In this document: positions 9,463 through 41,898 of the stretch, one piece after another
Position numbering within the stretch: the stretch's first letter is position 1
How the letters are laid out: the number at the start of each line of letters is the position of its first letter
Source of the DNA: Candidatus Babeliales bacterium
Lineage (GTDB): Bacteria; Babelota; Babeliae; Babelales; JBFXEV01
Reading direction: 5' to 3'
NCBI GenBank assembly: GCA_050179755.1
Contig: JBFXEV010000001.1
Span: 1,061,940-1,125,939 of the forward strand
DNA length: 64,000 nt
The notes under the pieces: generated by a model
The model's database searches: none
What the model was told of the DNA's origin: nothing
The model's input: only the letters and a program-made list of their open reading frames with translations
Position numbers and translations under genes: made by a program

Positions 9463-9840
9463 ATGAAAAGAATTACCTTTTTTGCGCTCAGCATTATGAT
9501 TTTTAAAACTATGCACGTGTGCGGTATGGATCGAGAATCTATTACCAAAGTCACACCCCAAGAAATTAGTACGTTGCTTGAAAAAAAAGCATACGACTAT
9601 CAAAGAGCAATGTTTGCATCGTATACTGCTAGTGGCAAATTTCTTGATGGGCATATAAACCCAATAGAAGTGGATTATGACATTCTTCTGAAAGAGCAAG
9701 TTATTCCGCTATTGATAGCACAAAGAATACAAGGTGCAAAAGCGCAGGGAATAGCAATAGAAGAAACTGAAATTAGTAATGGAGTTACTGCGCAGGTTCA
9801 TGCACTATGGAATGCACGCAAAAAAACACGTAAACAATGA
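9463..9840 (+). CDS. Hypothetical secreted protein
   Basis: Signal-peptide-like N-terminus. No family recognised. Confidence 0.4.
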   Translation: MKRITFFALSIMIFKTMHVCGMDRESITKVTPQEISTLLEKKAYDYQRAMFASYTASGKFLDGHINPIEVDYDILLKEQVIPLLIAQRIQGAKAQGIAIEETEISNGVTAQVHALWNARKKTRKQ

Positions 9841-11225: not shown

Positions 11226-12197
11226 TTAGTTTTGAGTAAACAGATGTTGCAATTTGGTATTAATATCTTGCATGCTTGTTTGTGCGGTAAAATCACACAT
11301 AAATGGCACTATAGTAATATAGCCTTGTGCAAGAGCAAGGTTGTCTGAATGAGCGGCAGTATCTTTATAATCTACTACGCATAAATCAATACAAAAATTG
11401 TTATCACCTTTATCATACGCTCTAAACACTGTATTTCCTTTAAGATACGTATCATACACTGCGTGGCCTGATTTGCATAATGCAATTCCTTTAATAGGAG
11501 CTTGTTCTGTTGCGTCAGCTTGTAATGCGGGAATATTCATATTTAATAAAACGCCATCAGGCAGAAGTTGATCGTTATCATCACGCTGTGCATCAAGTAA
11601 TTCCACAAAATAAGTAACAAATTTTGCCGTTTCTTGTATACGTGATTCATTTGCTCCTAAATTAATGCTTATGGCAATACTGGGTAGTGATTTTCTCCCC
11701 ATGCATACGCTGCGTGCCACTTGTGCAGCACCCACGGTGCCAGAATGCACACAACGAATGCTTACATTTTCACCACGGTTAGGCCCAGAAAGCACAATAT
11801 CAGGCTCACATCCAGCGCGGTACATTAATTCTTCACCCACAAGCACGCATTGGCCCGGAGTGGCCGGCCAGGATTTCCCTGCAAGTGGCCCAGCAATGTA
11901 GCCTATTTCTGTGCTTTGTACTGCAAATTCTTGATGGCCAAGTGGGATTAATTGCACATGCTTGCTTGAAAGTTGTACTGAGGTGCCGCAACCACTTTGG
12001 TTTGAAGAAGGGGCCACTAAAAATACGTTGTGGCCAGCATCACGCAGAGTTTGTTTGAGTGCTTGTATTTCAAGCGTGTGATAGCCATCATCATTAGTCA
12101 GAAGAATATTGAGCTTGCGTGGTTCTTTTGCGCAGACAAAATTTATTATAGTGGTGTTTGTAAGCACGATGCTGAGTAGGAGAAACATTTTCTTCAT
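11226..12197 (-). CDS. surE: SurE-type 5'/3'-nucleotidase with signal peptide
   Basis: ILLTNDDGYHTLEIQAL N-terminal SurE motif preceded by MKKMFLLLSIVLTNTTIINFVCA. Confidence 0.75.
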   Translation of the reverse strand: MKKMFLLLSIVLTNTTIINFVCAKEPRKLNILLTNDDGYHTLEIQALKQTLRDAGHNVFLVAPSSNQSGCGTSVQLSSKHVQLIPLGHQEFAVQSTEIGYIAGPLAGKSWPATPGQCVLVGEELMYRAGCEPDIVLSGPNRGENVSIRCVHSGTVGAAQVARSVCMGRKSLPSIAISINLGANESRIQETAKFVTYFVELLDAQRDDNDQLLPDGVLLNMNIPALQADATEQAPIKGIALCKSGHAVYDTYLKGNTVFRAYDKGDNNFCIDLCVVDYKDTAAHSDNLALAQGYITIVPFMCDFTAQTSMQDINTKLQHLFTQN

Positions 12198-12211
12198 GTG
12201 GTTCCTTTAAA

Positions 12212-12397
12212 GTGAAAATTTTCTTGGTAATCGTATGCCAAACATAGTAGTAATTTCGCGTGCATTACCGTCTGGTAATGTGCTTGCCAATTCTTCAAGC
12301 GTTATTGTGTGATTGCCTTGTTTGCCAATGATAATTACTTCTTCATCATTATAAACTTCATCTTGCCCAATATCCACCATAAATTGATCCATGCAAA
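12212..12397 (-). pseudogene. Orphan 3'-terminal fragment of alr (left direct repeat of the island)
   Basis: 186 nt with 2 mismatches to 17947-18132. Encodes MDQFMVDIGQDEVYNDEEVIIIGKQGNHTITLEELASTLPDGNAREITTMFGIRLPRKF. Everything upstream in the 95-aa ORF is unrelated to Alr. Confidence 0.85.
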
Positions 12398-12500
12398 ATA
12401 GATGCATGCGCAATACATCCAATTGCCTCAAGAGCTTCATCGTTATTTTGAGCTGCTGATGCAAGCGCTTGCCCGCTTTTCTTATAGACCACATTAAGTT

Positions 12501-12529
12501 TTACAAAATCTGACCCTTTGCAATATAAT
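12501..12529 (+). promoter_or_regulatory. Sigma70-like promoter TTACAA-N17-TATAAT upstream of the giant ORF
   Basis: Hexamers at 12501-12506 and 12524-12529. Confidence 0.4.
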
Positions 12530-12564
12530 CAGAAAATCTTGGGATGCGCTCAGTCTCATATGTG

Positions 12565-12593
12565 TTGAACTAGTATACTTATTGGAGTATAAT
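12565..12593 (+). promoter_or_regulatory. Sigma70-like promoter TTGAAC-N17-TATAAT
   Basis: Hexamers at 12565-12570 and 12588-12593. The -10 overlaps the listed TTG start, which argues for a downstream start such as the ATG at 12632. Confidence 0.4.
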
Positions 12594-15500
12594 TGAATGA
12601 GTTTTTACATCATGGAAGTGTCATCATTCCTATGTTTCGCTTAAGCTTGTCGGTACGTTTTCAACTAATATTAAGTTTGATTTACTTAGGTCTGATTTTT
12701 TTTGTATGGCCTAGCAAGCTGTACACATATTCTGTGGATACAATAACTTTTTCAGGCTCTTCGTATCCAAATGATTCAAACACCATTAGAGATCAAAAAC
12801 CGCGCATTTCGCAAGAAACTGCAAACATTCGTAGTCGTATTGAAAGCATTAATAATCCTGATACTATCCCTTCTGGTACGTTTCCAAAAAATAACAATTA
12901 TAGTGAGTATGAATTTATAGAAGAACGAGACCGAGATAGAAAAAGAGCAGAAAAAGAAAGACGTGGGCAAGCAGAAAACCAAAAACAAAAAGAAGAAAAA
13001 ATTATACAGAAGGAAGTTGCAAAAAAGTTATTAGATCAATCAAATAGAATTTCATCTTTTACACAGCAAACATCTTCCTCATCTCACTACGCTAAACAAG
13101 ACAAATCACCTGACTATATAACAAAACGCGCCACGTATTTAAAAAAGTTCCATGATGATCCTGATTATTACTACAGATCTACCGTCTATTTAAGGTATTC
13201 AAATTACCAAACAAGATCTCTTCTCGAGCAACACACGATTGATACGGATGAGTTTTATAATGAATTCTTCGGCAATCACTTGCAACATGGAATTCATGAA
13301 GAATATTTAAACATTGTCTCTCGTGTAACTAAAATTAATTTTGATAAAAACAACTGTCAACTCAGATCATTTATTGTATTGGCTGTGCAAACTTCCCGCG
13401 ATAACAATGTAAAAGGCAATTGTGTGACATCTTTAGAAATTAATGATTTTTGTCATCATATCCTGAATCCTAATTATCATGGTTTTCTTGCAGGTCAAAT
13501 TGCTCACTTACAAACAACTATTACCTATTATGAATCAAGTCATTGGAAACAAGCTCTAGGGTATCTAGCAGACGCTGCTCTAGGTGATCAAGAAATGCGC
13601 GCTTGCTTGAATGCTGCTCAAAAGTTTACTGAACAATTCAACATAATAAGGGATTCTCAATATAATGTGCAAGTTATAGAAATTATGGAGCAATTAAGCT
13701 TCAATGAACTTTCTGATCTCACGGCGCAGCGCCAATTTGAATTGTTAGAAAAACATCATGAAGCGATTGCCATAAAAGCATTACGAGCGCTAAATCAACA
13801 AAATATAAAAGATTTGCCAATTTTTGGTTATGCAGTTTCTATTCTTAAATTAGATAATCCACATAATGCATCAAATAGAAAGCTCATTGATTATTTATTA
13901 TATTCTAATGATTGTCTACATCGCGTTCATGAGCTCACGAATACGCCATATAGCTCTTTTCAGCAAAAAAATCCTTTCTTCACCGATAAAGGTATTCTTA
14001 AAGAATATGCTATTATTGCAGATATTGATAATTTGCCTATTCCGCCATTAGATCATTTAAAAAGCCCCGTATCTGCCCACGATTTATTATACACCTATTG
14101 TACAACTAATAAACTTGAGAAAAAAAAATTGGCTTATAGTGGCCTTTATCATGCAACCTATGCAACGATTCATCATCATTCTGAACGCTCAAAAGGCCAT
14201 GAGTTGCTTGCCGATAAGTATTATAAAACACTCTATAGTAGTGTGTTCAGTAAAAATGAAAAACTTATTGATTGGTGTGATGATCTTGCGTGCAGTTATG
14301 AAAACGTGTATCAACAAGAGGTGCACGATGAGCTTGTTTGGCTAACTAATTATTATATTGATACTCAAGAAAAAAGTATTAAAAAAGATGCAATCACCCT
14401 CAGATTGCTTGATGATATTGAGGATACTTTAATTACTGCCCATGGTTATAATCAAGATAATCAGTCAGAAAAAAGTCATGACCTTATTGCAAATATCGTA
14501 CATAACTTTGGTATGCTGCCAAAAGAAAATCAAAAAACACCCGATCTATTTCAATCACTCAATCTACTAGATGTTTCTAGAAATATAAGTAATAAAATAC
14601 AAGCAAGAGTTGCACATATTAAAGTGCATGCATGGTTAAATGATTATAATCTTGAAGAAACACTAGAGTATGCTCGGCATGAGCTTTCAAAAATGGAAAT
14701 ACAGCATGGCAAATTAATATGCCAAGCCGATTCAATTCAAGAAAGACCTGATGAGGTAATTCAATCACTATGTTTAGCAGAAGTTCTTGGATTTAGCGTA
14801 AAAACTGATGCAGATACTATTGATATTGGTTGCATTCCTAAAAAAGATCTTGCAACATTTAAAGACAATTGGCCAGAAGAAGAAGTGGTACAGAATGTAT
14901 TCAACCTTTGGCCTGAAGAAGTCCCCTTGTGTTCTGCAGGGTCACAAGGTGCAGCATATGAACGATATGCTGATCGCTATGATGCCTATCAAGAAACCAA
15001 ACTCACGCCGTATGTTTTTTTTGAAAGAACGTATGAAATTTCGAAAGAAGCTCAACAATTGCTTGATAAAAATGGAATAGATAGTGATTATTTAAAAGTT
15101 GGAACATACAATCGTATACAACATCAATTACATATAGAACTCATTGATATTCTTGAACAAACAACATCTTTAGACGCTCATCAAGAAGTGTGCGATTTAT
15201 TACGCTCGACAAACACTATGATGCTTGATTTTATATCAAGTGCAGCATATGAGAATAAAAATGGCAATATTTTACGCACGTGGACTATTGCTGATTTTTG
15301 TTGGGCAACGCTAGATTGTGGTCAAGCAATTCTTGAGGGAGCTCTTGAGGGCGGTGCTAATGCATTGATCTATCCTTTCAATTGTCCTGTTGAAACAATC
15401 TTGTTTACCGTAGCAGGTAAATATATGTTGTATTATCAACTTACAAAGCTTACTTATGAACTTGGCAGTGCGGTGTACGATCATCTTTCAAAAGAACAAG

Positions 15501-16516
15501 AAGAAAATACATCCAGCGAAACAAAAACTGCAATACAATTACGCGATATTTTAAAAGCTGCATCTTCTTTCGGTGCACAATTTTTGGTAGACCATAAAAT
15601 AGTAAATCCTATAGTTACGCAACGTATTAATTTAATGCAAAGTAAATTGGTCGATAAGTTTGTATTAGAAAATACGACTCAATGGTCTAAAATGAGACCA
15701 GAGGCTATTAAAGCTCCACAGACAGCGCAAGTGCAATTGGCAAGTGGTGAAAAAATTGAAGTAACTTTTCACAATGAAAATTTAGGGCAACGGCCGCAAG
15801 GCTTAAATTCTCCACAGAAACCGCGGAATTCATCGGGTGATAAAAAAGAATATCCAAGACCATCACCTGAAGAAATAGATCGCAATAGAGTAAATAAAAA
15901 TTTAGCAGATAAAGCTCGTAAACAAAAAGCTATTGATAATGCATCTCAAAAAGTGGAAAGAACCAATCGTCAAAAAATTAATACTGCCCAAAATATTCAA
16001 GATGCACAAATTTGTATCTTACATAAATATGACGAATTAGAAAAAATTTTTTATAAACATCTTTCACCTCATGCTGAATTTTTATATAAAAAATTTGGGA
16101 TAAGGATAAAAGGAATTGATTTTTATCATCATATGGAAAGAGATTTTAATCAAAATATAAAAGGTTATACAGGTTTTCATTCGGCACGCAATCATCCTGA
16201 GCATGTTTTTAAACTATTAGATGGTCCTAATGAGCATGGATTTGAAAATATTATTGTTGGTAGTGCAAGAAAAATAAAAAAAGCTCCTACCAGTACGTAT
16301 CCAAAAAACTGGGATGAAATTACTATCGGCCAGAGAGTTATTGAAGGGTTGCTTTCAGGAGAAGTTCATAAAAATAAGGGTGGAATCTTGGAAATACATG
16401 GAAAAGCTCAAAATTATTTACCTCATAGGGGTGTTGTTCCGTTTGATATTACAATTTTTTTAGAACCTAGTGGAATGATAAGGTCATCATTTCCACAATT
16501 AAATTTTAGGAAATAA
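12593..16516 (+). CDS. Giant (about 1300 aa) membrane-anchored protein with EndoU-like C-terminal toxin domain (polymorphic-toxin-like)
   Basis: N-terminal TM helix (LILSLIYLGLIFFVW), a KE-rich region and a long helical body with an internal repeat (HLQHGIHEEY.../RIQHQLHIEL...). The C-terminal ~168 aa (nt 16010-16516) carry GFHS...STYPKNWDEITIGQRVIEGL...IRSSFP, resembling bacterial EndoU nuclease toxin domains. The start may be the ATG at 12632. Confidence 0.65.
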   Translation: MNEFLHHGSVIIPMFRLSLSVRFQLILSLIYLGLIFFVWPSKLYTYSVDTITFSGSSYPNDSNTIRDQKPRISQETANIRSRIESINNPDTIPSGTFPKNNNYSEYEFIEERDRDRKRAEKERRGQAENQKQKEEKIIQKEVAKKLLDQSNRISSFTQQTSSSSHYAKQDKSPDYITKRATYLKKFHDDPDYYYRSTVYLRYSNYQTRSLLEQHTIDTDEFYNEFFGNHLQHGIHEEYLNIVSRVTKINFDKNNCQLRSFIVLAVQTSRDNNVKGNCVTSLEINDFCHHILNPNYHGFLAGQIAHLQTTITYYESSHWKQALGYLADAALGDQEMRACLNAAQKFTEQFNIIRDSQYNVQVIEIMEQLSFNELSDLTAQRQFELLEKHHEAIAIKALRALNQQNIKDLPIFGYAVSILKLDNPHNASNRKLIDYLLYSNDCLHRVHELTNTPYSSFQQKNPFFTDKGILKEYAIIADIDNLPIPPLDHLKSPVSAHDLLYTYCTTNKLEKKKLAYSGLYHATYATIHHHSERSKGHELLADKYYKTLYSSVFSKNEKLIDWCDDLACSYENVYQQEVHDELVWLTNYYIDTQEKSIKKDAITLRLLDDIEDTLITAHGYNQDNQSEKSHDLIANIVHNFGMLPKENQKTPDLFQSLNLLDVSRNISNKIQARVAHIKVHAWLNDYNLEETLEYARHELSKMEIQHGKLICQADSIQERPDEVIQSLCLAEVLGFSVKTDADTIDIGCIPKKDLATFKDNWPEEEVVQNVFNLWPEEVPLCSAGSQGAAYERYADRYDAYQETKLTPYVFFERTYEISKEAQQLLDKNGIDSDYLKVGTYNRIQHQLHIELIDILEQTTSLDAHQEVCDLLRSTNTMMLDFISSAAYENKNGNILRTWTIADFCWATLDCGQAILEGALEGGANALIYPFNCPVETILFTVAGKYMLYYQLTKLTYELGSAVYDHLSKEQEENTSSETKTAIQLRDILKAASSFGAQFLVDHKIVNPIVTQRINLMQSKLVDKFVLENTTQWSKMRPEAIKAPQTAQVQLASGEKIEVTFHNENLGQRPQGLNSPQKPRNSSGDKKEYPRPSPEEIDRNRVNKNLADKARKQKAIDNASQKVERTNRQKINTAQNIQDAQICILHKYDELEKIFYKHLSPHAEFLYKKFGIRIKGIDFYHHMERDFNQNIKGYTGFHSARNHPEHVFKLLDGPNEHGFENIIVGSARKIKKAPTSTYPKNWDEITIGQRVIEGLLSGEVHKNKGGILEIHGKAQNYLPHRGVVPFDITIFLEPSGMIRSSFPQLNFRK

Positions 16517-16517
16517 T

Positions 16518-17318
16518 ATGAATTCATTAATATTAAAGTATAATGATGGTTTTTATCGTTATAATGCATTCCAAATAACGAATGAATTGCTTGATTTGGC
16601 TGTGAGTCTGTTAACTACCGAAGAAATATGTACATCGGATTATTATAAAGAATTTATATACGAATTACCCTATAATACATACTCGGGTAATGCATATTAT
16701 ATGGAAAGAATAGATGATTATATCATTTTGGGTTGTCAATATAGCTTTGAAAGAGCATATTTGCATTTATATCAATTTGAAAATCTTATGAGTCAATGGC
16801 GAAAAGCATATGAAGATAAGCCAACTGAAATGATAATTTCAGTTGATGATAAAAATTTTATTATCTCGTATGAAAAAGATAGTAAGAGTATAAAATTAAC
16901 TTCAACATCAGAATATATAACATCAACATCGTTTTTAAGCGAATATCCTTATGCTGATAACTATGTTGAAATAGAGCCAATCTATGATGAATTACATGTG
17001 TTTGAATCTGATGATCGTAGGTTTAACGTATTTGCTTATTTACTGACAAGCAATATTCCTTCTTCAGATTATGTAGAAAAGTTGCAACAACCTCCTTATG
17101 AATATTATGATGATCGGTACTATTTAGCAATTGTTGAAGATAGAATTCTTATCTATGATAAAACAATGGAAATAAAAGTATTGCCAGCCTATAATAAATT
17201 TCTTGATCTTATGAAACAATGGCCACTAGCAGTACATAAAAAACCAAAACTTATTCGTATATATATTGAAAATGACTATGATCTTAAGATTTTTATATTG
17301 CAGCCAGTTTCTTTATAA
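16518..17318 (+). CDS. Candidate immunity protein (two tandem homologous domains)
   Basis: ATG lies 1 nt after the toxin stop. Acidic and Tyr-rich. The halves align (YYMERIDDYIILG...FENLMSQWRKAYEDKP vs YYLAIVEDRILIY...FLDLMKQWPLAVHKKP). Confidence 0.55.
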   Translation: MNSLILKYNDGFYRYNAFQITNELLDLAVSLLTTEEICTSDYYKEFIYELPYNTYSGNAYYMERIDDYIILGCQYSFERAYLHLYQFENLMSQWRKAYEDKPTEMIISVDDKNFIISYEKDSKSIKLTSTSEYITSTSFLSEYPYADNYVEIEPIYDELHVFESDDRRFNVFAYLLTSNIPSSDYVEKLQQPPYEYYDDRYYLAIVEDRILIYDKTMEIKVLPAYNKFLDLMKQWPLAVHKKPKLIRIYIENDYDLKIFILQPVSL

Positions 17319-17569
17319 TAGTTTTTGCATGGCTTAAACAATTGAGTTAAATCTTAGAAAGACAAAAAGTTAATGAATAGCGGATTGAACTTTATATTAT
17401 TTTTTTAACCAGGTGAAAATTTTATCTGGTAGGTTGTCGTTTGATGATCTAGTCGTTTGTATGTTCTGTGTATACGCTGTGACTGTATATAATCACATTT
17501 AATATGATAAAATAGATGTTAAGAGCATTTCTTAATTTTAATAAAGAGTAATACAATGAAAAAAACTAT

Positions 17570-17890
17570 ATGGTTGGTTGTTGTCCTGAGTGTAAATATT
17601 ATTTCTCCGTAATGGGTATGATGCGTTATGTGTATTGTGCAGAAGATGATACAACTGCTTCCTATTCAGCGATTTTATTAGCGACTGGCGTTGAAATTGT
17701 GACATGTGACAAAGAAAAAAAAGTATATCGTGCTTGTTTGACTCGTGTTGTATTATCACAAAAACCGGGTCGATTTACATTTGAGGAACAAGACCTTGAT
17801 TTTCCGCAATCAGTGTATGAGCAGTTAAAAGATAGGTATGAAGCAAATAAAACACGTGCATTGCAGACTTTTCAAACAAATATAGATTAA
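17570..17890 (+). CDS. Hypothetical protein (possibly frameshifted; see findings)
   Basis: 106-aa ORF. An 18-codon signal-peptide mini-ORF (17556-17612) sits in another frame over its 5' end. Confidence 0.3.
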   Translation: MVGCCPECKYYFSVMGMMRYVYCAEDDTTASYSAILLATGVEIVTCDKEKKVYRACLTRVVLSQKPGRFTFEEQDLDFPQSVYEQLKDRYEANKTRALQTFQTNID

Positions 17891-17941
17891 CAAAAACAGG
17901 AAGGCTTGAAATTGAAGAGATTGCGTGCGCATTTTCTTTTT

Positions 17942-19066
17942 TTATTGTAAAAATTTTCTTGGTAATCGTATGCCAAACATAGTAGTAATTTCGCGTGCAT
18001 TACCGTCTGGTAATGTGCTTGCCAATTCTTCAAGCGTTATTGTGTGACTGCCTTGTTTGCCAATGATAATTACTTCTTCATCATTATAAACTTCATCTTG
18101 CCCAATATCCACCATAAATTGATCCATGCAAATGCGCCCAATTATAGGGTAACGTTTGCCACGAATGATCACTTGCCCGCCATGCATAAATTGCCGATTA
18201 AAGCCGTCACCATAGCCAAGCGGCACCGTGATTACACGAGTATCTTTGGGTGCCTTCCACGTAAGGCCATAGCTCACGCCAGCACCCTCTTTGACTACTT
18301 TAAAATACACCACGCGTGAGCTGAGCGCCATAACTGCCTTTAATGCAATGCTGGTATGCATATGGGGTGCAGGTACTATGCCATACATAATGAGACCTGG
18401 CCGCACCATATCTAAATGGCTTTCTGGAAATTGTAAAATTGCGCCAGATGCTGCTATATGAAAAAGAGGTTTATTAGCAAAAATATGTGCATGGGCAACG
18501 CTTTGTTTAAAACGTTCAAGTTGTGTGCGAGCAAAAGTAAGGTCTTGTTCTTCACCCATTGCAAAATGAGAGAAAATGCCCACAACATCGCACCATTGTG
18601 TGGTGCTTGCATACTCGATGAGTTTATGCGCATTGTAATAATGAATGCCCGTGCGCTCAATGCCGGTATCAATTTCAAGATGTATGCGTGCGCGCTTTCG
18701 TGCGTGCTTTGCATGTTGTTCAATAGATTCTAGCTTGTTTAGTGATGCTGCGTTAATATCAAGATCATACTGTAAAAAGAGTTCAATTTGCCGGTGTAAA
18801 ATACCGCCAAGCACCACAATGGGCACTTTAATGTTTGCTTTTCTGAGTGCTATTCCTTCTTCAAGTAGTGCTACACCAAGCCATGAGGCTCCAATTTTTT
18901 GTAAGTGCTGAGCACATTCAATAAGGCCGTGCCCATACGCATTGCCTTTTACAATGGGCATAACATGCGCAGAGCCTACAAACGCTTGTATGGCGTGGAA
19001 GTTATGCTCAAGAGCAGAAAGATTAATGTTAATATAGGTGGGCCGTTGTTGCAGTTCTTCATACAT
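17942..19066 (-). CDS. alr: Alanine racemase
   Basis: PLP-lysine motif VKGNAYGHG, C-terminal beta domain and full length of 374 aa. Confidence 0.9.
   Translation of the reverse strand: MYEELQQRPTYININLSALEHNFHAIQAFVGSAHVMPIVKGNAYGHGLIECAQHLQKIGASWLGVALLEEGIALRKANIKVPIVVLGGILHRQIELFLQYDLDINAASLNKLESIEQHAKHARKRARIHLEIDTGIERTGIHYYNAHKLIEYASTTQWCDVVGIFSHFAMGEEQDLTFARTQLERFKQSVAHAHIFANKPLFHIAASGAILQFPESHLDMVRPGLIMYGIVPAPHMHTSIALKAVMALSSRVVYFKVVKEGAGVSYGLTWKAPKDTRVITVPLGYGDGFNRQFMHGGQVIIRGKRYPIIGRICMDQFMVDIGQDEVYNDEEVIIIGKQGSHTITLEELASTLPDGNAREITTMFGIRLPRKFLQ
17947..18132. repeat. Right direct repeat of the island (functional alr 3' end)
   Basis: 184/186 identical to 12212-12397 by manual alignment. 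Confidence 0.85.
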
Positions 19067-22998: not shown

Positions 22999-23071
22999 TA
23001 TGCATTTTTTGCTTCAAGTTGCTGTGCAGCTTTTGCAAAGTATTTTGCCCGCGTTGTGTGCGAAGGATGTG
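22999..23071 (-). pseudogene. Orphan 3'-terminal fragment of an M48-like peptidase paralog
   Basis: About 90% identical to 23741-23811 (5 substitutions and one 2-nt indel by manual alignment). Encodes ...HPSHTTRAKYFAKAAQQLEAKNA*. Confidence 0.6.
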
Positions 23072-23096
23072 CTAAATTAATTAACATTTAAGGGGA

Positions 23097-23735
23097 ATGA
23101 TAATGAGTAACGCAGCAATGCAAACTGGTAAATATAGATTATCGGTTGATAATGCAGTTCTTTTGCTGGTTGATCATCAAACAGGGCTTTTCCAATTGGT
23201 TCGGGATTATAGTCCAGATGAATTTAAGAATAACGTATGTGTATTGGCAGCTATTGGTAAAATGTATAATTTGCCTACTATTTTGACAACAAGTTTTGAA
23301 TCTGGGCCCAATGGCCCCTTGTTCCCCGAAATTCGTACATTACATCCTCACGCTACATTTATTGCGCGACCGGGTGAAATTAATGCTTGGGATAATAAAG
23401 ACTTTGTTGATGCGGTAAAAGCCACCGGCAGAAAAAAATTGCTCATTGCAGGCATTGTTACCGACGTGTGCGTGGCATTGCCAACACTTGCAGCACTTGC
23501 CGAAGGCTTTGATGTATATGTAGTAGCAGACGCTTGTGGCACCACAAGTGTTGCAGTGCGTGAACTTGCGCTCATGCGTATGGTACATGCGGGTGCAGTC
23601 ATTACTAATTGGTTTGCAGTATCATCTGAGTTACACCGTGATTGGCGGCATAATGGAGAGGCACTTGCAGCGCTATTGGGCCAGTACTTTGTGCCCTATG
23701 CTAATTTAATGAGCAGTTATAAAGCTAAGAAATAA
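23097..23735 (+). CDS. Isochorismatase / cysteine hydrolase family protein (YcaC-like)
   Basis: LLVDHQTGLF and IAGIVTDVCV (catalytic Cys) motifs. Confidence 0.8.
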   Translation: MIMSNAAMQTGKYRLSVDNAVLLLVDHQTGLFQLVRDYSPDEFKNNVCVLAAIGKMYNLPTILTTSFESGPNGPLFPEIRTLHPHATFIARPGEINAWDNKDFVDAVKATGRKKLLIAGIVTDVCVALPTLAALAEGFDVYVVADACGTTSVAVRELALMRMVHAGAVITNWFAVSSELHRDWRHNGEALAALLGQYFVPYANLMSSYKAKK

Positions 23736-24730
23736 TGTGCTATGCATTTTGTTTCAAGTTGTTGTGCAGCTCTTGCAAAGTATTTTGCGCGTGTTGTGTG
23801 CGAAGGATGTGGATCCATAATATCGGTTACTACTTGCGCTGGTGAATGATCATGCTCCGATAAAGCATTAAAATACTCACTGCGTGCTTTGAGTATTTCT
23901 GGGTCGCGTGTACGCTTGATAGAATCTTGATCGGCGCGATATTCTTGCCAATAAGTCCAAGCAGCGTTACATACTGCAGTGATTCCTATTTTGCCAAGTA
24001 ATGAAGGAATATGAGCAAGTCCGTGTAATACGGTATCTACAATGGTTGGGTCTGAAGCTAAGGTGTGTATATCAAAATAGCTTTTTAATTTTTCAGTTGT
24101 ATAAAGTGCCACTAAAACACTTGTGCCAAGGATTGCTATTCTTGTACGTGCATCTTTATGCAATAAATGTGAGCCTTCATGCAAAAGGGTGCCTTTCCAT
24201 AGAGCAAGCGTAGAGGCATCAATTGCAAATCCTGCTTGCTTTGCATTGGCAATAAAGACAGCAACAGGTAATTTGTTGAGTGCACTTTTTTGTGTAAGTT
24301 CTATTTCACTAAATCGTTGGGCATCTTGATTTTCTAATGCTTGTGCTTGATGCAGTTCAGCATCAGTTAAGTGTTCAGGTATGCTGATATATGATTTATT
24401 GTTGTAGTTTGTTGCAGCAAAATGAGATTGTGGTATTTTTACCACTTCAATATCAGCGCCTTGTAATTCAGGGTATCCTGCAAGTAACTGCTCACGCACG
24501 AATTTTTGGGTTTTAGGTTCCACGGGGCGTGCCTTGGCAACAAAGTCTTGCCGGTCTTGGAAGACCAAATACGCAGGAAGTGCCATAGGTATAACATAGT
24601 CAAGAGCTTGCATAGTTACATTAAAGCCAGAGGCTGCCAGATGGCCAACCCAGTCCATTGCTTTTGATTGCTGGATTATAGTAGATGCTGCTAAGAAGAT
24701 GAATCCGTAAAGTAGAGATTGCTTTTTCAT
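23717..24730 (-). CDS. Secreted HExxH zinc metallopeptidase, M48-like (paralog 1)
   Basis: Signal peptide, HEGSH, and EYRADQD ~80 aa downstream (the ExxAD third-ligand region of M48-type enzymes). Confidence 0.55.
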   Translation of the reverse strand: MKKQSLLYGFIFLAASTIIQQSKAMDWVGHLAASGFNVTMQALDYVIPMALPAYLVFQDRQDFVAKARPVEPKTQKFVREQLLAGYPELQGADIEVVKIPQSHFAATNYNNKSYISIPEHLTDAELHQAQALENQDAQRFSEIELTQKSALNKLPVAVFIANAKQAGFAIDASTLALWKGTLLHEGSHLLHKDARTRIAILGTSVLVALYTTEKLKSYFDIHTLASDPTIVDTVLHGLAHIPSLLGKIGITAVCNAAWTYWQEYRADQDSIKRTRDPEILKARSEYFNALSEHDHSPAQVVTDIMDPHPSHTTRAKYFARAAQQLETKCIAHYFLAL

Positions 24731-32027: not shown

Positions 32028-32957
32028 CTAAGGCTTAGATTGCATTTTTGGTGATGTGGCGATCATTTTATGTATCGTTTGTAAAATAGTAATTTCTAAT
32101 TCTTTGGCGGCAACTTGCGGGAGCAATTTTTTGCCTAATGTTATCTTACTTTTCATTATTGCAGGAATTAATTGTGTGGCAATCAGTAAGGCAACATCTT
32201 TACCAAAGATAGTTTTCTTGCCTGGATCATTACAGGGGTTAGTTAAACTAATGAGTGCCGGAATAATATGCTTAATTTCTTGTGGAGCTAGTGTTGTTGC
32301 TAATGCTTTTCTAGTACGTTGGCTTCGCTTTGAGGAAATTTCCAGTAAAGTAGTGCCCGTGGCATCGGCAGTGTTTATATCAGCGCCAGCTTCAATGAGT
32401 ATTGGAATCGCTTGCCATACGTCTTTTTTTACTGCTAAAAATAAGGGTGTTTCACCGCATCCGTTTGGTGTGTTTACGCGCGCTCCAGAGTTTATGAGTG
32501 TTTTTATGCCAGAAAGAGCACATACTCGCACGGCAGCGTGTAATGGCGTATTAAGCCTTTGATCTTGCGCATTGGGATCAGCACCCCACGCAATTAATAT
32601 TTGTGGCGTGATTGGACTGGTAGTTGTTTTGCTAGGTGCACTATAAAATGCATAGTGTAAAGGTGTTGCTCCGCGTAAATCACGAATAGTTGGCTTTGCC
32701 CCTGCATCTAAAAGACATTGTGTCTTTACACTATCATTATTGCGGGCTGATTCAAATAATGAGTTATCCATCAGCCGTCGCTCCTCTGGAGCTTCCGCTA
32801 CGCCTAAGCTAGAGCATGTCCAGATGGCGTAATTGGTATCACGACGTCCTTCGACAAGCTCAGGATGAGCGGATTTTGGCGAAGTCTGATTCATTGCCTT
32901 AACTTGCCCTGACAAAATGTAGGCAAGAATGGCTGCTAATTGAAAAAATGGTTTCAT
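32028..32957 (-). CDS. Ankyrin-repeat protein with signal peptide, carrying a repeat-derived insert
   Basis: ANK motifs (GATPLHYA, NTPLHAAV, GETPLFLAV). Residues SAHPELVEGRRD...AEAPEERR are encoded by a dispersed GC-rich repeat. Confidence 0.8.
   Translation of the reverse strand: MKPFFQLAAILAYILSGQVKAMNQTSPKSAHPELVEGRRDTNYAIWTCSSLGVAEAPEERRLMDNSLFESARNNDSVKTQCLLDAGAKPTIRDLRGATPLHYAFYSAPSKTTTSPITPQILIAWGADPNAQDQRLNTPLHAAVRVCALSGIKTLINSGARVNTPNGCGETPLFLAVKKDVWQAIPILIEAGADINTADATGTTLLEISSKRSQRTRKALATTLAPQEIKHIIPALISLTNPCNDPGKKTIFGKDVALLIATQLIPAIMKSKITLGKKLLPQVAAKELEITILQTIHKMIATSPKMQSKP
32770..32880. repeat. GC-rich dispersed repeat copy embedded in-frame in the ankyrin ORF
   Basis: 32847-32872 is the reverse complement of the 26-mer at 3054-3079 (25/26). 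The block is GC-rich in an AT-rich gene. Confidence 0.55.
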
Positions 32958-33038
32958 GAATTATTAATTTCTCTGTTAATTAAGATATTCCGTGCTATTG
33001 TATTGCAGTTTTGTAAGTGAAGTAGTTATGATGCATCA

Positions 33039-33737
33039 TCATTCAATAAATTGTGTAATCTTTGAACAAATATTCAGCGTTTCTTTGCTTGCGCAATATT
33101 CAGTAATCTTGCCACGTTCAAGATAATACACCCGGTCAATAACTTGGCGTATAAAACTTGTGTCTTGGCTTGAAAGACCAATAGCAATTCCTTGTGTTGC
33201 CAAATTTTGCAAAATGCTCACTAAAATAGTGGTGTTTTCAGGATCAAGTGATGCGGTGGGTTCGTCGAGCAATAAAACTCTTGGATTCAAGCATAATGCT
33301 CGTGCAATGGCAACGCGTTGCTGCTGACCGCCAGAAAGTTCTTGCGGATATTTTTGCGCATATTCTTGCATGCCAAGTTGTTGCAAAGTATCATGTGCAC
33401 GTTTTTCGGCTTCTGGCGTGGCTACGCCTTGCACGAATAATGGGTCACTGCAATTTTGCAGGGCCGTTAAGTGTGGGAACAAATTAAAATCTTGGAATAC
33501 AAAACCAATCTGTTGTGAGCGTTCTTTTGCAGAAAGTGAACTTAATTGCTTGTTGTTAATTGTAATGCTTCCACGAGTTGTGGTGATAAGCCCTGCAAGG
33601 GCTTTTAGTAACGTTGTTTTGCCCGCACCACTTTTACCAATACATGCGGTAATGCGCCCTGGCTCTAGTGCACATGACGCTTCAGAAAGTATTGTTTGAT
33701 TGTTTATGAGTAACGTAATGTTATTAGCGATAACCAT
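33039..33737 (-). CDS. Amino-acid ABC transporter ATP-binding protein
   Basis: Walker A GKSGAGKTT, LSGGQQQR and LLLDEPTASLD. Confidence 0.85.
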   Translation of the reverse strand: MVIANNITLLINNQTILSEASCALEPGRITACIGKSGAGKTTLLKALAGLITTTRGSITINNKQLSSLSAKERSQQIGFVFQDFNLFPHLTALQNCSDPLFVQGVATPEAEKRAHDTLQQLGMQEYAQKYPQELSGGQQQRVAIARALCLNPRVLLLDEPTASLDPENTTILVSILQNLATQGIAIGLSSQDTSFIRQVIDRVYYLERGKITEYCASKETLNICSKITQFIE

Positions 33738-34392
33738 ATGATGTCCTTTGTTCAGTGTAAACTAAAGCGCCTTGGAGCACTGCAGAAAGTAGTAAGTACA
33801 GACAAGCAATTAAAATATAAACGGGCACGGGGTTAAGTTCCCGCGAAATAATATTCATACCAGCACGCGTTAGATCCATCACGCCAATTGCTGCAAAGAG
33901 AGCAGTGCTTTTTAGTATTTGTTCACCTTCACCAAAAAGTGCTGGCGCAATGGTGCGTATCGTTTGTGGCAAGATAATGCGTTTGAGCGTCGGTAATAAT
34001 GGATAGCCAAGTACGCTGCATGCTTGCCATTGCCCTTTGGGGACGGCATTTATGCCAGAGCGAATAATTTCAGTAACATAGCCGCTTGAACAAAAAGCAA
34101 GTGCGCCAGATGCCGCTATAAATCCGGATAGATTAATGCCAAGGAGCGCAGGTAGCGCAAAGTATGCAATAAGAATTTGCACGTAGGCAGGAATACCTTT
34201 TGCAATAAACGTGTAGATCCTTATGCACGTTTGCAGTCGTTTATATGCCAAGTATCTGCAGCTTACAATGCCAAATATGGTGCCGATGCTGATGCTAATA
34301 AGTGCCACTAATAGCCAGGCTGCAACAGTTGTTGCAGCGCCAGTCATAAGTAATGATGTATAAGGAGCTATACTTTGCATGAGATTCCCCAT
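33724..34392 (-). CDS. Amino-acid ABC transporter permease
   Basis: Paralog of 29480-30139. The start could be the ATG at 34380. Confidence 0.8.
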   Translation of the reverse strand: MGNLMQSIAPYTSLLMTGAATTVAAWLLVALISISIGTIFGIVSCRYLAYKRLQTCIRIYTFIAKGIPAYVQILIAYFALPALLGINLSGFIAASGALAFCSSGYVTEIIRSGINAVPKGQWQACSVLGYPLLPTLKRIILPQTIRTIAPALFGEGEQILKSTALFAAIGVMDLTRAGMNIISRELNPVPVYILIACLYLLLSAVLQGALVYTEQRTSYGYR

Positions 34393-35159
34393 TTTAGTTC
34401 AAAGGCCCGTAACATGCCCTGATTTTGTAACTGAGCAATGGCATCGGTTATTTGCTGTATGAGCTTTTTGTTTTCTTTCTTGATGGCAATACCGGTTCCC
34501 ATTACTTGAAATTCTTCTGCAAGAGGGACTTCAAGAATTTTGGTTTCAGGAAACCTGTTTTTAAACTTTGCAGCAATTGCCGGTTCCACGAGCGCAGCTT
34601 GTGCTTTGCCATATTGAATCATGAGTAACGCATCATCAACGCGTTCAGTGCTGAGCTTTGTGATATTTGGATATGTGTTGAGCACAGCTTCTTGTGATGA
34701 AGCAGGCTCCACACATATGGTCATGCCATTCATATCAGCAATGCTTGTAATGCCTTGTGGTATCTCTTTCCAAAATAGAAGTGAATAAGCGTTTACATCA
34801 TCACCTTGATAGCGCACCATGGCAACTTTTTCAAGTCGTGCTTTGGTGATAGATAATCCCCAAATTATTGCATCAATGCTGCCTTGTTCAAGTGCAATAA
34901 AAAGTGGCGCCATAGAACCTAGATCTTTGAGCACTAATGTTTTGCCCATTTGCTGTGCAAGAGCATTGGCCACATCAATATCAAAGCCTTCGTAATCGCC
35001 TTGCGCGTTTACGCTTACAAAGGGTGCATAATTACCCACGGTGCCAACAACAAAAACATCACCTTGCGATGATGGTAATGTTGCTTTTTTAAATAGCAGA
35101 TAACTACCAATTAAAGAAATAAATGCCACAAAAAGCATTATATTTGTTTTATAGTTCAT
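34368..35159 (-). CDS. Amino-acid ABC transporter substrate-binding protein (family 3)
   Basis: Signal/anchor, then YAPFVSV...GFDIDV. Confidence 0.8.
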   Translation of the reverse strand: MNYKTNIMLFVAFISLIGSYLLFKKATLPSSQGDVFVVGTVGNYAPFVSVNAQGDYEGFDIDVANALAQQMGKTLVLKDLGSMAPLFIALEQGSIDAIIWGLSITKARLEKVAMVRYQGDDVNAYSLLFWKEIPQGITSIADMNGMTICVEPASSQEAVLNTYPNITKLSTERVDDALLMIQYGKAQAALVEPAIAAKFKNRFPETKILEVPLAEEFQVMGTGIAIKKENKKLIQQITDAIAQLQNQGMLRAFELKWGISCKV

Positions 35160-35499
35160 AATAAATCCTCTAGTGATATTTGCTCTAAAAGAGTTTACGC
35201 AAATAAAACTAACTACAATGTGCGTATTAAAATTAAAATTAAGTTAAATAAAGTGAGATAAGATGACTTATCCCGAATGAGTTCCATTGGAACGAAATGA
35301 GGGATTAATGATGATGTGGATGAGAGAAAGAAGAAATAGAGATAGAGAACGCAGAGAATGCGCTTGAAATTTGATTGCGGGAAAGAGGGTTGTTTTGAGT
35401 AGGTATCATGATTACTCCTTTGATTACCTAACGGAATTATACTGTACAGTAGTTACTATAATAAATAAACTTCTATTTGTCAATCTCATAAATTGTTTT

Positions 35500-35531
35500 A
35501 GAAAAGGCGAATGTCATTTTGTGCATTCGCC
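35500..35531 (-). terminator. Rho-independent terminator
   Basis: GGCGAATG/CATTCGCC 8-bp stem followed on the minus strand by TTTTCT. Lies just after the stop of 35553-35807. Confidence 0.6.
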
Positions 35532-35552
35532 CATTCAGATAATAATTATAGA

Positions 35553-35807
35553 TTAGCCTTCAGCAGGTGGATTTGAGTCTGAGTTGTCTCGTGGCTTTGG
35601 CTTAAAAAACTTACTTAAGCTCGGGCGGGGGTGATAATGATTGGGGGTCATGTTGCCTTGATTTTGCATAGTTGATTTACCAACAACATAACCAACTACT
35701 AAGCCACTCATGCCTAATGCCGCAGCAGTTTTCTTGGGTCCGCCAGCGTTTGCTGCTAAGGTAACAAGCGAGCTTGCAAGAATTATTGTTTTGAATATGA
35801 GATTCAT
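35553..35807 (-). CDS. Small secreted/membrane protein (Gly-rich helix)
   Basis: Signal peptide followed by GMSGLVVGYVVG. Confidence 0.45.
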   Translation of the reverse strand: MNLIFKTIILASSLVTLAANAGGPKKTAAALGMSGLVVGYVVGKSTMQNQGNMTPNHYHPRPSLSKFFKPKPRDNSDSNPPAEG

Positions 35808-35851
35808 GAAAATGTTCCTTTCTATAAGGTGTTGTACGATATGCTTGTTTT

Positions 35852-37273: not shown

Positions 37274-37598
37274 AATACTCCTATATGGCTTCTGTAAAAC
37301 CAAATATTATATTTCTAATTGTATATTAAATTTAATATTTGTCAAGCGGATTTGGTGGGTTAATAGGCGCATTAATGCAGGCTTGACAAGCAGATTTTAA
37401 GCGCAGCGGCTTAAGTTGCTTTTTCTTATAGGTTGCCAGACCTGCTAGAGCAGTTTAAGAGCCTTTACAAAGGGCATTTTTTGGGCAATACTTAACTATA
37501 TTTATATCATATAAACCTGTTCCTTCTTTAATCTGAAAGCTGATCTTGGTATTGACCCAGGGGGCCTATGGCAGAGGAACTTTCAAAGGATACACACC

Positions 37599-37817
37599 GT
37601 GAAAACAGGTATTCACCCAGAATTACATGAAGTGACAATTACATGTGCATGTGGCAATGCTATTACTACGCGTTCTACCATGAAAGATGTAACCGTGACG
37701 CTATGCTCAAAATGCCACCCGTTCTTTACTGGCGAACAAAAGTTTGTAGATACAGCGGGCCGTATTGAGAAGTTCCAAGCTCGTTATAAAGCACCAGAGA
37801 CGAAAAAGAAGAAGTAA
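37599..37817 (+). CDS. rpmE: 50S ribosomal protein L31
   Basis: MKTGIHPE..., CxCG...CSKCHPFFTG zinc motif. GTG start. Confidence 0.9.
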   Translation: MKTGIHPELHEVTITCACGNAITTRSTMKDVTVTLCSKCHPFFTGEQKFVDTAGRIEKFQARYKAPETKKKK

Positions 37818-37879
37818 CCGTCTCATCTAGCCTTTTGGCTAGCTAATTCGGTCAAGACTTAATGGAAATGAAACAATAG

Positions 37880-38950: not shown

Positions 38951-39085
38951 TCCTCATCGCTCAGAGCGCTGTGCCCGCCGTAGCCAGCCAAGTTTGAAGA
39001 CCTGGATTGGCGTAGGCCGGGAGTGTTCTTCAAGCCTTCAGGCTATGACGGATGTATCGAGGGGTTGCAAAGGTTTAACTACCAA
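38951..39085. repeat. GC-rich block, probable dispersed-repeat copy
   Basis: CCGCCGTAGCC / GGCGTAGGCCGG motifs resemble those flanking tRNA-Phe. Composition contrasts with the surrounding AT-rich spacer. Confidence 0.35.
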
Positions 39086-39231
39086 TATCTCCTGCTGATG
39101 CAGGTTTATAAACCTGACAAATAAACTATCAATATATCTATAAATATCAATATATAGATCTAATCGATGTATCCAAAATGTTATATTTAAACCTGTAAAT
39201 AAAAGTTTTTATAAAAACTTATCAAAAACCC

Positions 39232-39261
39232 TTGCTTATCGAGCTTTCAATAAGTTATAGT
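39232..39261 (+). promoter_or_regulatory. Sigma70-like promoter TTGCTT-N18-TATAGT in front of the stem-module array
   Basis: Hexamers at 39232-39237 and 39256-39261. Confidence 0.4.
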
Positions 39262-39264
39262 ATA

Positions 39265-40131: not shown

Positions 40132-40246
40132 GAAATGTTCCGTATAATGCTTGAAAAAAGAGCGCACCTTTTAAATTGTTGACTATTGAAACGGCACTGG
40201 CCTATGCTTTGTTATGTATAGTATAAGGCACAAAAAAGGGATATCA

Positions 40247-41815: not shown

Positions 41816-41845
41816 ATGCTAGGCAAATAAAACAATTTTAATTAT

Positions 41846-41897
41846 ACTCCTAAGCAGTTCGTTTAAAAATATAAACAAAATTGCTTAGGAGTTTTTT
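41846..41897 (+). terminator. 11-bp perfect hairpin + T-run; its 3' arm contains the nupC Shine-Dalgarno
   Basis: ACTCCTAAGCA (41846-41856) pairs with TGCTTAGGAGT (41882-41892), then TTTTT, then the ATG at 41899. Confidence 0.5.
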
Positions 41898-41898
41898 C

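What the first reader, a model, noticed from the sequence alone, without database searches (positions are those of the whole stretch)
12212..18132. 5.5-kb AT-rich island at the 3' end of alr, bounded by a 186-bp near-perfect direct repeat, with no integrase
- **Repeat:** 12212-12397 and 17947-18132 differ at only 2 of 186 positions by my manual alignment.
- **What the copies are:** The right copy is the genuine 3' end of a full-length alanine racemase gene. The left copy is an orphan fragment; upstream of nt 12397 the 95-aa ORF has no Alr similarity.
- **Cargo:** Between the copies lie three plus-strand ORFs convergent with alr: a giant toxin-like gene, a candidate immunity gene and a 106-aa ORF. 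Two good sigma70-like promoters precede them.
- **Composition:** The cargo is much more AT-rich than the flanks. Single-line spot counts give 16/60 vs 30/60 G+C.
- **Interpretation:** This layout is what integrative elements leave when they target the 3' end of a gene and carry a replacement copy of it, as tRNA/tmRNA-targeting islands do. Here the target is a protein-coding gene and I can find no recombinase, transposase or terminal inverted repeats. The near-identity of the repeats implies a recent event, or ongoing gene conversion or excision.
Basis: partly seen in the sequence, partly recalled or inferred. Interest (0 to 1): 0.8.

Follow-up and report, generated by a model that had tools for sequence, protein, structure and literature searches.

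The report
Toxin island splitting alr from surE
A 5.5-kb toxin-plus-antidote gene cassette has been inserted right behind the alanine racemase gene of an uncultured amoeba-associated bacterium (Babeliales), and a second copy of the gene's last 62 codons keeps the gene whole; this is a real but fairly ordinary genomic-island scar whose insertion enzyme is unknown.

Summary
Positions 12212-12397 and 17947-18132 are a 186-nt direct repeat with 2 mismatches. The right copy ends a full-length alr. The left copy is an orphan fragment still joined to surE.

Two sister Babeliales genomes (Alr 81% and 78% identical) keep the same gene order but have one alr end, followed 6-10 nt later by surE. So 12398-17945 is an insertion.

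- **Cargo:** a secreted polymorphic toxin with a divergent EndoU-like RNase C-terminus, its conserved 266-aa partner (candidate immunity protein), and a 106-aa gene. The only relative found for that gene lies 3 kb from alr in a sister genome.
- **Usual location:** in three other Babeliales contigs the toxin-immunity pair sits next to ftsH, without flanking repeats.
- **Recombinase:** none was found in the island (all six frames) or among the ORFs checked across the 64-kb window.
- **Composition:** the AT-richness is real but modest (32.8% vs about 39% G+C). The cassette shows the same bias in relatives, so it does not prove foreign origin.

The layout matches integrase-less, att-flanked islands (CIME-like, or e14 in icd). 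The joining mechanism is unresolved. It could be recombination with an island-borne alr end, or a duplication made in place during insertion.

I rate it a new member of a known kind, of modest interest.

The parts
11226..12197 (-). surE-like gene (323 aa, N-terminal signal-like segment). It is the native downstream neighbour of alr.
   Evidence: Pfam SurE, E 1.6e-37. It is 73% and 70% identical to the SurE that follows alr by 6-10 nt in L167 and L177.
12212..12397 (-). Left repeat copy: an orphan alr 3' fragment (codons 313-372 plus its own ending FSL*, stop at 12207-12209). It is still joined to the native TAAAGGAA...ATG junction with surE.
12207..12494 (-). 95-aa chimeric ORF: 33 unrelated codons from the island's left end, read in frame into the orphan alr fragment.
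   Evidence: Pfam Ala_racemase_C matches only residues 34-92.
12398..12631 (+). Non-coding left end of the island, with two sigma-70-like sites (12500-12529 and 12565-12593) upstream of the toxin gene.
   Evidence: No similarity to relatives' loci or to the rest of the window.
12632..16516 (+). Polymorphic toxin gene. The ORF is open from TTG 12593 (1307 aa), and ATG 12632 (1294 aa) is the likelier start. It has a signal/TM-like N-terminus, a shared middle domain at about residues 787-1007 (about nt 14951-15613), and an EndoU-like C-terminal domain at about residues 1168-1303 (about nt 16094-16501).
16518..17318 (+). 266-aa candidate immunity gene. It starts 2 nt after the toxin stop and is 27.7% G+C.
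   Evidence: Homologues (44-59% identical) follow every related toxin C-terminus, including an orphan pair.
17570..17890 (+). 106-aa ORF of unknown function. It is 48% identical to a 111-aa gene lying between adenosine deaminase and acetyltransferase in the sister genome.
17947..18132 (-). Right repeat copy: the functional 3' end of alr. Its ending TTACAATAA (FLQ*) is the same as in sister genomes.
17942..19066 (-). Full-length alanine racemase gene (374 aa).
   Evidence: Pfam N- and C-terminal domains. 100% match to an NCBI protein named 'MAG: alanine racemase [Candidatus Babeliales bacterium]'.

Best explanation
**Shown**
- An ancestor of this Babeliales genome had DAO-alr-surE, with alr's stop 6-10 nt from surE's start.
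- A 5.55-kb segment (12398-17945) now lies between them. It carries a Sec-type polymorphic toxin with a divergent EndoU-like RNase end, its cognate 266-aa partner, and a small 106-aa gene.
- The last ~62 codons of alr are present on both sides of the segment. alr therefore stays intact, and the displaced copy stays attached to surE.

**Inferred**
- The incoming DNA carried its own copy of the alr end. It joined the chromosome by recombination within that shared sequence.
- The joining route could be a site-specific recombinase supplied in trans, RecA-dependent Campbell-type integration of a circle, or homology-anchored illegitimate recombination.
- The right copy would then be the imported one and the left copy the native one.
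- The island has no recombination genes of its own, so it is now a passive, att-flanked remnant (CIME-like).
- The 186-nt repeats could still allow RecA-mediated loss of the island. They also allow gene conversion, which may explain their 99% identity.
- The toxin presumably acts on competing bacteria or on the host, and the 266-aa protein presumably protects the producer.
For: **Insertion**
- L167/L168 (Alr 81% identical) and L176/L177 (78%) share the flanking gene order and have one alr end abutting surE.

**Repeat anatomy**
- The repeat has sharp edges with no residual homology beyond them.
- The left copy keeps the native stop-to-surE junction. The right copy has a different ending, FLQ*, identical to L167's TTACAATAA. 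This is as expected if the two ends came from different alleles.
- Identity is perfect for 84 nt next to the inner junction and falls off toward the stop codon.

**No recombinase**
- Pfam finds none in the three ORFs, in 35 six-frame pieces of the island, or in the 30 ORFs checked by Pfam between 21 and 64 kb. None appears either among the precomputed Pfam labels on the Logan contig covering the left flank.
- PHROGs gives no match for the island proteins.

**The cassette moves between loci**
- The homologous toxin-immunity pair sits beside ftsH in L006, L172 and L173.
- The genome carrying the empty alr site L167 also holds both immunity homologues P0275 and P0276.

**Toxin identity**
- Full-length homologues P0002 and P0123 are 43-44% identical.
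- The middle domain occurs in most of 190 library hits. Some of these end in Ntox35 or colicin-E3-type Cytotoxic domains.
- C-terminal relatives P0211 and P0214 pass Pfam's EndoU_bacteria threshold, and 5 of 7 members of the C-terminal alignment match that family.
- L006 carries an orphan C-terminal domain plus immunity pair.

**Known precedent for the layout**
- e14 is flanked by icd on one side and the icdC C-terminal pseudogene on the other (PMC13626634).
Against: - No integrase, circular junction or cognate autonomous element was seen anywhere, and only 64 kb of a 1.53-Mb genome was available.
- A 186-nt, 99%-identical repeat is long for a site-specific att site. It also requires a nearly conspecific donor, or later homogenisation by gene conversion.
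- The other loci carrying this cassette have no flanking host-gene repeats. The cassette therefore has no demonstrated habit of carrying a target-gene end.
- The 106-aa gene looks local rather than imported.
- The three clustered differences in the last two codons could also be a mutational scar on a copy made in place.
Confidence: 0.5

Rival explanations
1. The duplication was made in place during an illegitimate insertion. Either a break with widely staggered ends was filled in, or a replication template switch (FoSTeS/MMBIR-like) left alr near the stop codon, copied 5.5 kb from elsewhere, and re-entered about 190 nt upstream. Both copies would derive from the resident alr, and no element or recombinase would be involved.
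For: - There is no recombinase in the island or the window.
- The copies are 99% identical, including synonymous sites, as expected if both come from the same gene.
- The right (functional) copy keeps the FLQ* ending seen in three relatives at about 80% identity, which is one candidate for the ancestral state.
- The cargo looks composite: a toxin pair that elsewhere sits beside ftsH, plus a gene from the local neighbourhood.
- A second, smaller case of a gene-end repeat bracketing an extra convergent gene lies 5 kb away, at 23007-23071 / 23747-23811.
Against: - It requires three substitutions within 5 nt (12210, 12211, 12214) in the orphan copy against one in the other 180 nt.
- Target duplications of about 190 nt, or kilobase-scale template-switch insertions, are not established processes in bacteria (my own knowledge).
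- No near-identical source copy of the cargo exists in the same samples. The island assembles as one clean 5.6-kb contig, and homology searches find no second copy in this MAG.
Confidence: 0.27
2. The assembly shows an alternative configuration. The organism may really have an empty alr-surE site plus a separate 5.7-kb circular molecule (repeat plus cargo), or a mixture of both states, and the assembler threaded them into one path.
For: - k=31 Logan contigs break inside every repeat copy.
- The assembly graph {surE side, cargo right end} -> repeat -> {cargo left end, alr body} fits both configurations.
Against: - The source is a single 1.53-Mb contig.
- The two copies differ at 12214 and 12313 and at their stop ends, so reads or k-mers of 100 nt or more can tell the paths apart.
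- Even the circle-plus-empty-site state would imply the same island and the same repeat, merely excised.
Confidence: 0.06
3. It is an autonomous integrative element whose recombinase belongs to an unrecognised family and is hidden in the giant protein, the 266-aa protein or the 106-aa protein.
For: None of the three proteins matches any Pfam, PHROGs or PDB sequence family directly.
Against: - The giant protein is homologous over its full length to toxins that sit at another locus without repeats.
- The 266-aa protein co-varies with toxin C-termini, as immunity proteins do.
- The 106-aa protein's only detected homologue sits in the sister genome's chromosomal alr neighbourhood.
Confidence: 0.03

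Closest known systems
e14 / phage 21 integration into the 3' end of icd in E. coli (icd plus the icdC pseudogene)
   Same: - The target is a protein-coding gene, not a tRNA gene.
- The intact gene extends into the element at one end.
- A C-terminal pseudogene fragment sits at the other end.
- The copies are near-identical with a few substitutions.
- Loss of the element would recombine the gene with the orphan end (PMC13626634, citing Hill et al. 1989).
   Different: - e14 encodes its own integrase and excisionase and is a 15-kb prophage remnant.
- This island is 5.5 kb, has no recombinase or phage genes, and excision has not been observed.
[quoted passage not shown]
   Same: - Direct repeats made from the 3' end of the target gene flank a cargo that has no recombination or transfer genes. 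This matches the definition in PMC5704250.
   Different: - CIMEs are defined by descent from, and mobilisation by, a cognate ICE or IME. No such element, integrase or conjugation system was seen here.
- The known examples I recall have far shorter repeats, for instance about 27 bp in fda of Streptococcus thermophilus (from memory, not tested).
- Conjugation is doubtful for an intracellular Dependentiae bacterium.
Polymorphic toxin systems (CDI/Rhs/LXG-type loci with immunity genes and orphan cassettes) carrying EndoU-type RNase ends
   Same: - A long secreted protein has a shared trunk domain joined to different toxin ends in different proteins (EndoU, Ntox35, colicin-E3-type).
- A partner gene lies immediately downstream.
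- Relatives carry arrays of immunity paralogues and an orphan C-terminal domain plus immunity pair.
   Different: - The N-terminal and middle domains match no Pfam family.
- The secretion route is unknown, and only a signal-like N-terminus is seen.
- The window's own C-terminal domain fails the Pfam EndoU_bacteria threshold and is linked to the family only through intermediates.
- The host is an obligate intracellular lineage.
Homology-facilitated illegitimate recombination (one end anchored by homology, the other joined illegitimately)
   Same: - It needs no site-specific recombinase.
- One side of the insert would be resolved within homologous alr sequence (concept as in PMC3240628).
   Different: - It is usually described with deletion or simple insertion at the illegitimate end, not with a 186-nt duplication of the anchor.
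- Natural competence is unknown for this organism.

Membership tests
Integrative element targeting the 3' end of a gene (e14-icd type, ICE/IME/prophage) | Insertion is absent from the same site in relatives (an empty site exists). | tested here: met
   L167/L168/L169 and L176/L177 have DAO-alr-surE with a 6-10 nt spacer and a single alr end.
Integrative element targeting the 3' end of a gene (e14-icd type, ICE/IME/prophage) | Direct repeats at both ends are made of the target gene's 3' end, and the gene is reconstituted. | tested here: met
   186 nt with 2 mismatches. alr is full length, and the orphan copy lies next to surE.
Integrative element targeting the 3' end of a gene (e14-icd type, ICE/IME/prophage) | The element encodes its own integrase or recombinase (tyrosine, serine or DDE). 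| tested here: not met
   No Pfam recombinase in the 3 ORFs or in 35 six-frame pieces of 45 aa or more. No PHROGs match.
Integrative element targeting the 3' end of a gene (e14-icd type, ICE/IME/prophage) | Excision to a circular form and an empty site. | not testable with these tools
CIME (cis-mobilizable element) | Flanked by attL/attR-like repeats but lacking integration and transfer genes. | tested here: met
   Repeats are present. No such genes are in the island. Whether the repeats function as att sites was not tested.
CIME (cis-mobilizable element) | Derived from, or mobilisable by, a cognate ICE/IME whose integrase recognises the same site. | tested here: inconclusive
   No integrase among the window ORFs checked. 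The remaining ~1.47 Mb of the genome was not available.
Polymorphic toxin system | A shared N-terminal or trunk region is joined to alternative C-terminal toxin domains in different proteins. | tested here: met
   The middle domain (residues ~787-1007) dominates 190 library hits. Members end in Ntox35 (P0125), Cytotoxic (P0152) or EndoU (P0211) domains.
Polymorphic toxin system | A cognate immunity gene lies immediately downstream and co-varies with the toxin end. | tested here: met
   Homologues of the 266-aa protein follow each related C-terminal domain in the window, L006 (twice) and L172. The protective function was not tested.
Polymorphic toxin system | Toxicity of the C-terminal domain and its neutralisation by the partner protein. 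| not testable with these tools
   This requires expression experiments.
EndoU_bacteria (PF14436) RNase toxin domain | Match to the family model above Pfam's threshold, with the His/His/Lys catalytic pattern. | tested here: inconclusive
   - The window's C-terminal domain alone gives no Pfam match, even at E up to 10.
- phmmer links it (E 6e-9 and 7e-9) to P0211 and P0214, which score 34 and 67 bits against a 25.3-bit cut-off.
- 5 of 7 aligned relatives match the family.
- The motifs GFHS..HPE and K..PST.YP..W are conserved.
- The structure model is too poor to test the fold: pLDDT 56, with the central (putative catalytic) part below 50.
Transposon / insertion sequence | Transposase, terminal inverted repeats and a short target-site duplication. 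| tested here: not met
   No transposase. No terminal inverted repeats at the island ends. The duplication is 186 nt.

The most novel reading that the evidence does not exclude
This lineage may insert genes through a recombinase-independent process that duplicates the 3' end of the neighbouring convergent gene, for example replication template switching or fill-in of widely staggered breaks. The alr island would be a fresh, large example. The 65-nt repeat bracketing the isochorismatase gene at 23007-23811 would be an older, smaller one. If so, 'gene-end duplication' would be a recurrent route by which reduced intracellular genomes that lack mobile-element enzymes take up new genes without destroying their neighbours.
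Probability: 0.12. Interest if true: 0.6.

Novelty: new member of a known kind. Interest (0 to 1): 0.33.

Why it matters
- **A clean insertion example.** It documents a recent gene insertion in Dependentiae/Babeliales, a poorly known phylum of protist-associated bacteria, with the empty site preserved in sister genomes.
- **Toxin cassettes move.** These reduced genomes carry polymorphic toxin-immunity cassettes and move them between loci. That bears on whether intracellular symbionts compete with each other.
- **Gene-safe insertion.** The insertion keeps both alr and the alr-surE junction intact by duplicating 186 nt. This is a useful test case for how islands without integrases arise.
- **An undescribed toxin domain.** The shared middle domain, which accounts for most of the 190 hits, has no Pfam family. 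It is a candidate new trunk or translocation module for polymorphic toxins.

Tried and rejected
- **Alr scans of genome contigs and metagenome contigs.** Only relatives at 55% identity or less came back (Lysobacterales and others). The empty sites came instead from the protein search plus contig look-ups.
- **Exact look-up of Alr and P0003.** Not on record.
- **Host-gene repeats around the cassette elsewhere (L006, L172) and around this genome's second toxin locus (L174).** Only immunity paralogue and orphan-cassette repeats were found.
- **Residual homology beyond either repeat boundary.** Not above shuffled controls.
- **DNA similarity of the island's non-coding ends to relatives' loci or the rest of the window.** None.
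- **Elevated synonymous conservation at alr codons 300-335 vs L167.** Suggestive of an embedded site, but not significant after allowing for multiple windows and for the excess of two-codon amino acids. I set it aside.
- **Direct family and structure searches for the toxin end.** Pfam at E up to 10, and PDB searches by sequence and by profile, found nothing. AlphaFold with a 2-sequence alignment gave pLDDT 56.5, with the central, putative catalytic part of the domain below 50. The Foldseek PDB search on that model returned only noise.
- **Viral contigs, plasmid and phage collections.** No relative of the toxin and no copy of the repeat.
- **Literature searches.** Nothing for Dependentiae with polymorphic toxins, or Babeliales with genomic islands.
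- **Transposon and autonomous-element readings.** Rejected for lack of transposase, inverted repeats or any recombinase.
Full report
**1.

- The repeat finder reports one outstanding direct repeat, 12195-12397 / 17930-18132. It is the longest in the whole 64-kb window.
- Base-by-base comparison gives exact blocks 12215-12312 and 12314-12397.
- Beyond either edge, similarity is no better than in shuffled sequence.
- The right copy is the end of a 374-aa ORF with complete alanine racemase N- and C-terminal domains. The left copy lies in a 95-aa ORF in which only residues 34-92 are Alr-like.
- Three plus-strand ORFs fill the interval.
- The cargo is 32.8% G+C against 38.8% and 39.9% for the flanks. 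It is the most AT-rich 5.5-kb stretch of the window.
- Two strong sigma-70-like sites precede the giant gene. Such sites are not over-represented in the region.

**2. Source and assembly support**

- The giant protein and Alr are identical to proteins of an NCBI MAG named Candidatus Babeliales bacterium (Dependentiae), on a 1.53-Mb contig.
- Independent k=31 Logan assemblies of three runs reproduce the surE side, the whole island and the alr side at 100% identity.
- Each contig ends about 30 nt inside a repeat copy. All four junction sequences therefore exist in reads.
- Those contigs cannot tell the integrated state from an empty site plus a 5.7-kb circle.

**3. It is an insertion**

- The protein search found Alr relatives at 78-81% identity.
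- Their contigs show the same neighbourhood as the window: RPE65, DAO, alr, surE, adenosine deaminase, acetyltransferase, LysE, AsnC.
- They have a single alr end followed directly by surE, 6 nt away in L167/L168/L169 and 10 nt away in L176/L177. SurE is 70-73% identical.

**4. Which copy is which**

- The left copy keeps the native stop-to-surE junction (TAAAGGAAC..ATG, as in L177 and L167), but it ends in TCA CTT TAA (FSL*).
- The right copy, fused to the alr body, ends in TTA CAA TAA (FLQ*). That is letter for letter the ending in L167, and it is shared by three relatives at the protein level.
- The last residues vary among relatives (FLQ, FVY, FIT...), so FSL could be this lineage's native allele.
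- Identity between the copies is perfect for 84 nt next to the inner junction. One SNP follows, then 98 perfect nt, then three differences within 5 nt at the stop end.
- This gradient suits recombination at or near the inner edge with an incoming, slightly different alr end, perhaps later homogenised by gene conversion.
- It can also be read as a local mutational scar on a copy made in place.

**5. The cargo**

*Toxin*
- The giant protein has full-length homologues P0002 and P0123 at 43-44% identity.
- An exhaustive HMMER scan found 190 proteins at E of 0.001 or less.
- Most share only a middle domain (residues ~787-1007) that has no Pfam family.
- Among those checked, some end in Ntox35 or colicin-E3-type Cytotoxic domains. 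That is the polymorphic-toxin pattern.
- The last ~135 residues hit P0211 and P0214, which pass Pfam's EndoU_bacteria threshold. Five of seven aligned relatives match that family.
- The window's own domain does not match directly. I therefore call it EndoU-like by transitive homology.

*Candidate immunity protein*
- The 266-aa protein has homologues directly after each related toxin end. These include an orphan C-terminal domain plus immunity pair in L006 and an array of paralogues in L172.

*Location in relatives*
- In L006, L172 and L173 the cassette sits by ftsH and a conserved 217-227-aa gene, with no host-gene repeats.
- Both immunity homologues P0275 and P0276 map to the 1.87-Mb contig, the same one that carries the empty alr site L167.
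- The cassette is also AT-rich relative to its flanks there: toxin ~37% and immunity gene ~27%, against flanks of 40-42%. Low G+C is therefore a trait of the cassette, not proof of recent import.

*Third ORF*
- The 106-aa ORF is 48% identical to a 111-aa gene lying 3 kb from alr in the sister genome.
- The window's ORF at that position is unrelated. The cargo therefore looks composite.

**6. No recombinase**

- Pfam finds none in the three ORFs, in 35 out-of-frame pieces of the island, or in the thirty ORFs checked between 21 and 64 kb.
- The left flank's precomputed annotations show only metabolic genes.
- PHROGs gives nothing for the island proteins.
- The island ends carry no inverted repeats.
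- No relative of the toxin or copy of the repeat occurs in the viral, plasmid or phage collections.

**7. Interpretation**

What is shown is a toxin-immunity island inserted between alr and surE, with a 186-nt (possibly ~191-nt) duplication of the alr end that keeps alr intact. How it was joined is inferred.

- **Recombination with an island-borne alr end (about 0.5).** This makes the island an integrase-less, att-flanked remnant comparable to a CIME (PMC5704250), with the same layout as e14 in icd/icdC (PMC13626634).
- **Duplication made in place by illegitimate insertion or template switching (about 0.27).**
- **Mis-threaded assembly, or an excised circle plus an empty site (about 0.06).**
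- **A hidden novel recombinase (about 0.03).**

The single most informative missing datum is the alr ending in island-free strains of the same species.

**8. Verdict**

- The finding is genuine and well delimited.
- Every component belongs to a known category: a gene-end-flanked island and a polymorphic toxin with an immunity gene.
- It is new for the phylum, and the toxin's trunk domain is undescribed.
- A second, smaller gene-end repeat bracketing an extra gene lies 5 kb away. It leaves a small chance of a recurrent, recombinase-free insertion process, and I report that as the novel case.

Noticed in passing
window 23007-23071 and 23747-23811 (with 23097-23735 between): A 65-nt direct repeat (92% identical) is made of the near-3' end of an M48-peptidase-like gene (23717-24730, minus strand) and an orphan fragment that still encodes ...HPSHTTRAKYFAKAAQQLEAKNA*. 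The two copies bracket a convergent isochorismatase gene that the sister genome L167 lacks at this place. The layout is the alr island in miniature. However, the M48-like genes form a tandem family (337, 349 and 352 aa), so the orphan may simply be a decayed paralogue.
   Followed up: partly
L174 6846-9670 (same organism, Logan SRR27751816; NCBI AB7F19_01245): The same MAG has a second toxin, P0124 (600 aa), that shares the middle domain at 37% identity. It is followed by three paralogous small ORFs (94, 95 and 137 aa) that look like an immunity array. No host-gene repeat flanks it.
   Followed up: partly
window ~14951-15613 (toxin residues ~787-1007): This middle domain has no Pfam family. 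It accounts for most of the 190 hits among the 1.84 billion representative proteins. Those proteins are mostly 400-700 aa long, and several end in different toxin domains. It is a candidate undescribed trunk or translocation domain of polymorphic toxins.
   Followed up: partly
L006 15000-16733: In a sister Babeliales contig, the full toxin plus immunity pair is followed by a displaced copy of the toxin's last ~1.7 kb region. This comprises an orphan 126-aa C-terminal domain and a 272-aa immunity gene, 70-85% identical at the DNA level. That is the classic orphan-cassette arrangement.
   Followed up: yes
window 17570-17890 vs L167 14228-14563: The island's third ORF (106 aa) is 48% identical to a 111-aa gene that lies between adenosine deaminase and acetyltransferase in the sister genome. 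The window's ORF at that position (9463-9840) is unrelated. The small gene seems to have changed place within the neighbourhood.
   Followed up: partly
window 18030-18170 (alr codons ~300-335): This stretch has the highest nucleotide identity (0.91-0.93) and identical-codon fraction (about 0.8 vs 0.55 overall) between this alr and the sister species' alr. It straddles the inner repeat boundary and contains a TGGATA-17-TATAAT site facing surE (12376-12348 in the left copy). It is not significant after allowing for amino-acid composition and multiple windows.
   Followed up: partly
window 17942-19066 and relatives: Outside a small Babeliales clade, the closest Alr sequences (54-58% identical) belong to Bdellovibrionota and Lysobacterales. 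In a more distant Babeliales contig (L175), alr sits beside ftsZ instead. This hints at lateral acquisition or relocation of the DAO-alr-surE block.
   Followed up: no
window 39438-39607: Two tandem copies of an 85-nt unit (88% identical) lie in an intergenic stretch upstream of a NUDIX gene.
   Followed up: no
window 32028-51279: There is a dense run of ankyrin-repeat genes (at least seven ORFs) plus an LRR protein, typical of protist-associated bacteria.
   Followed up: no
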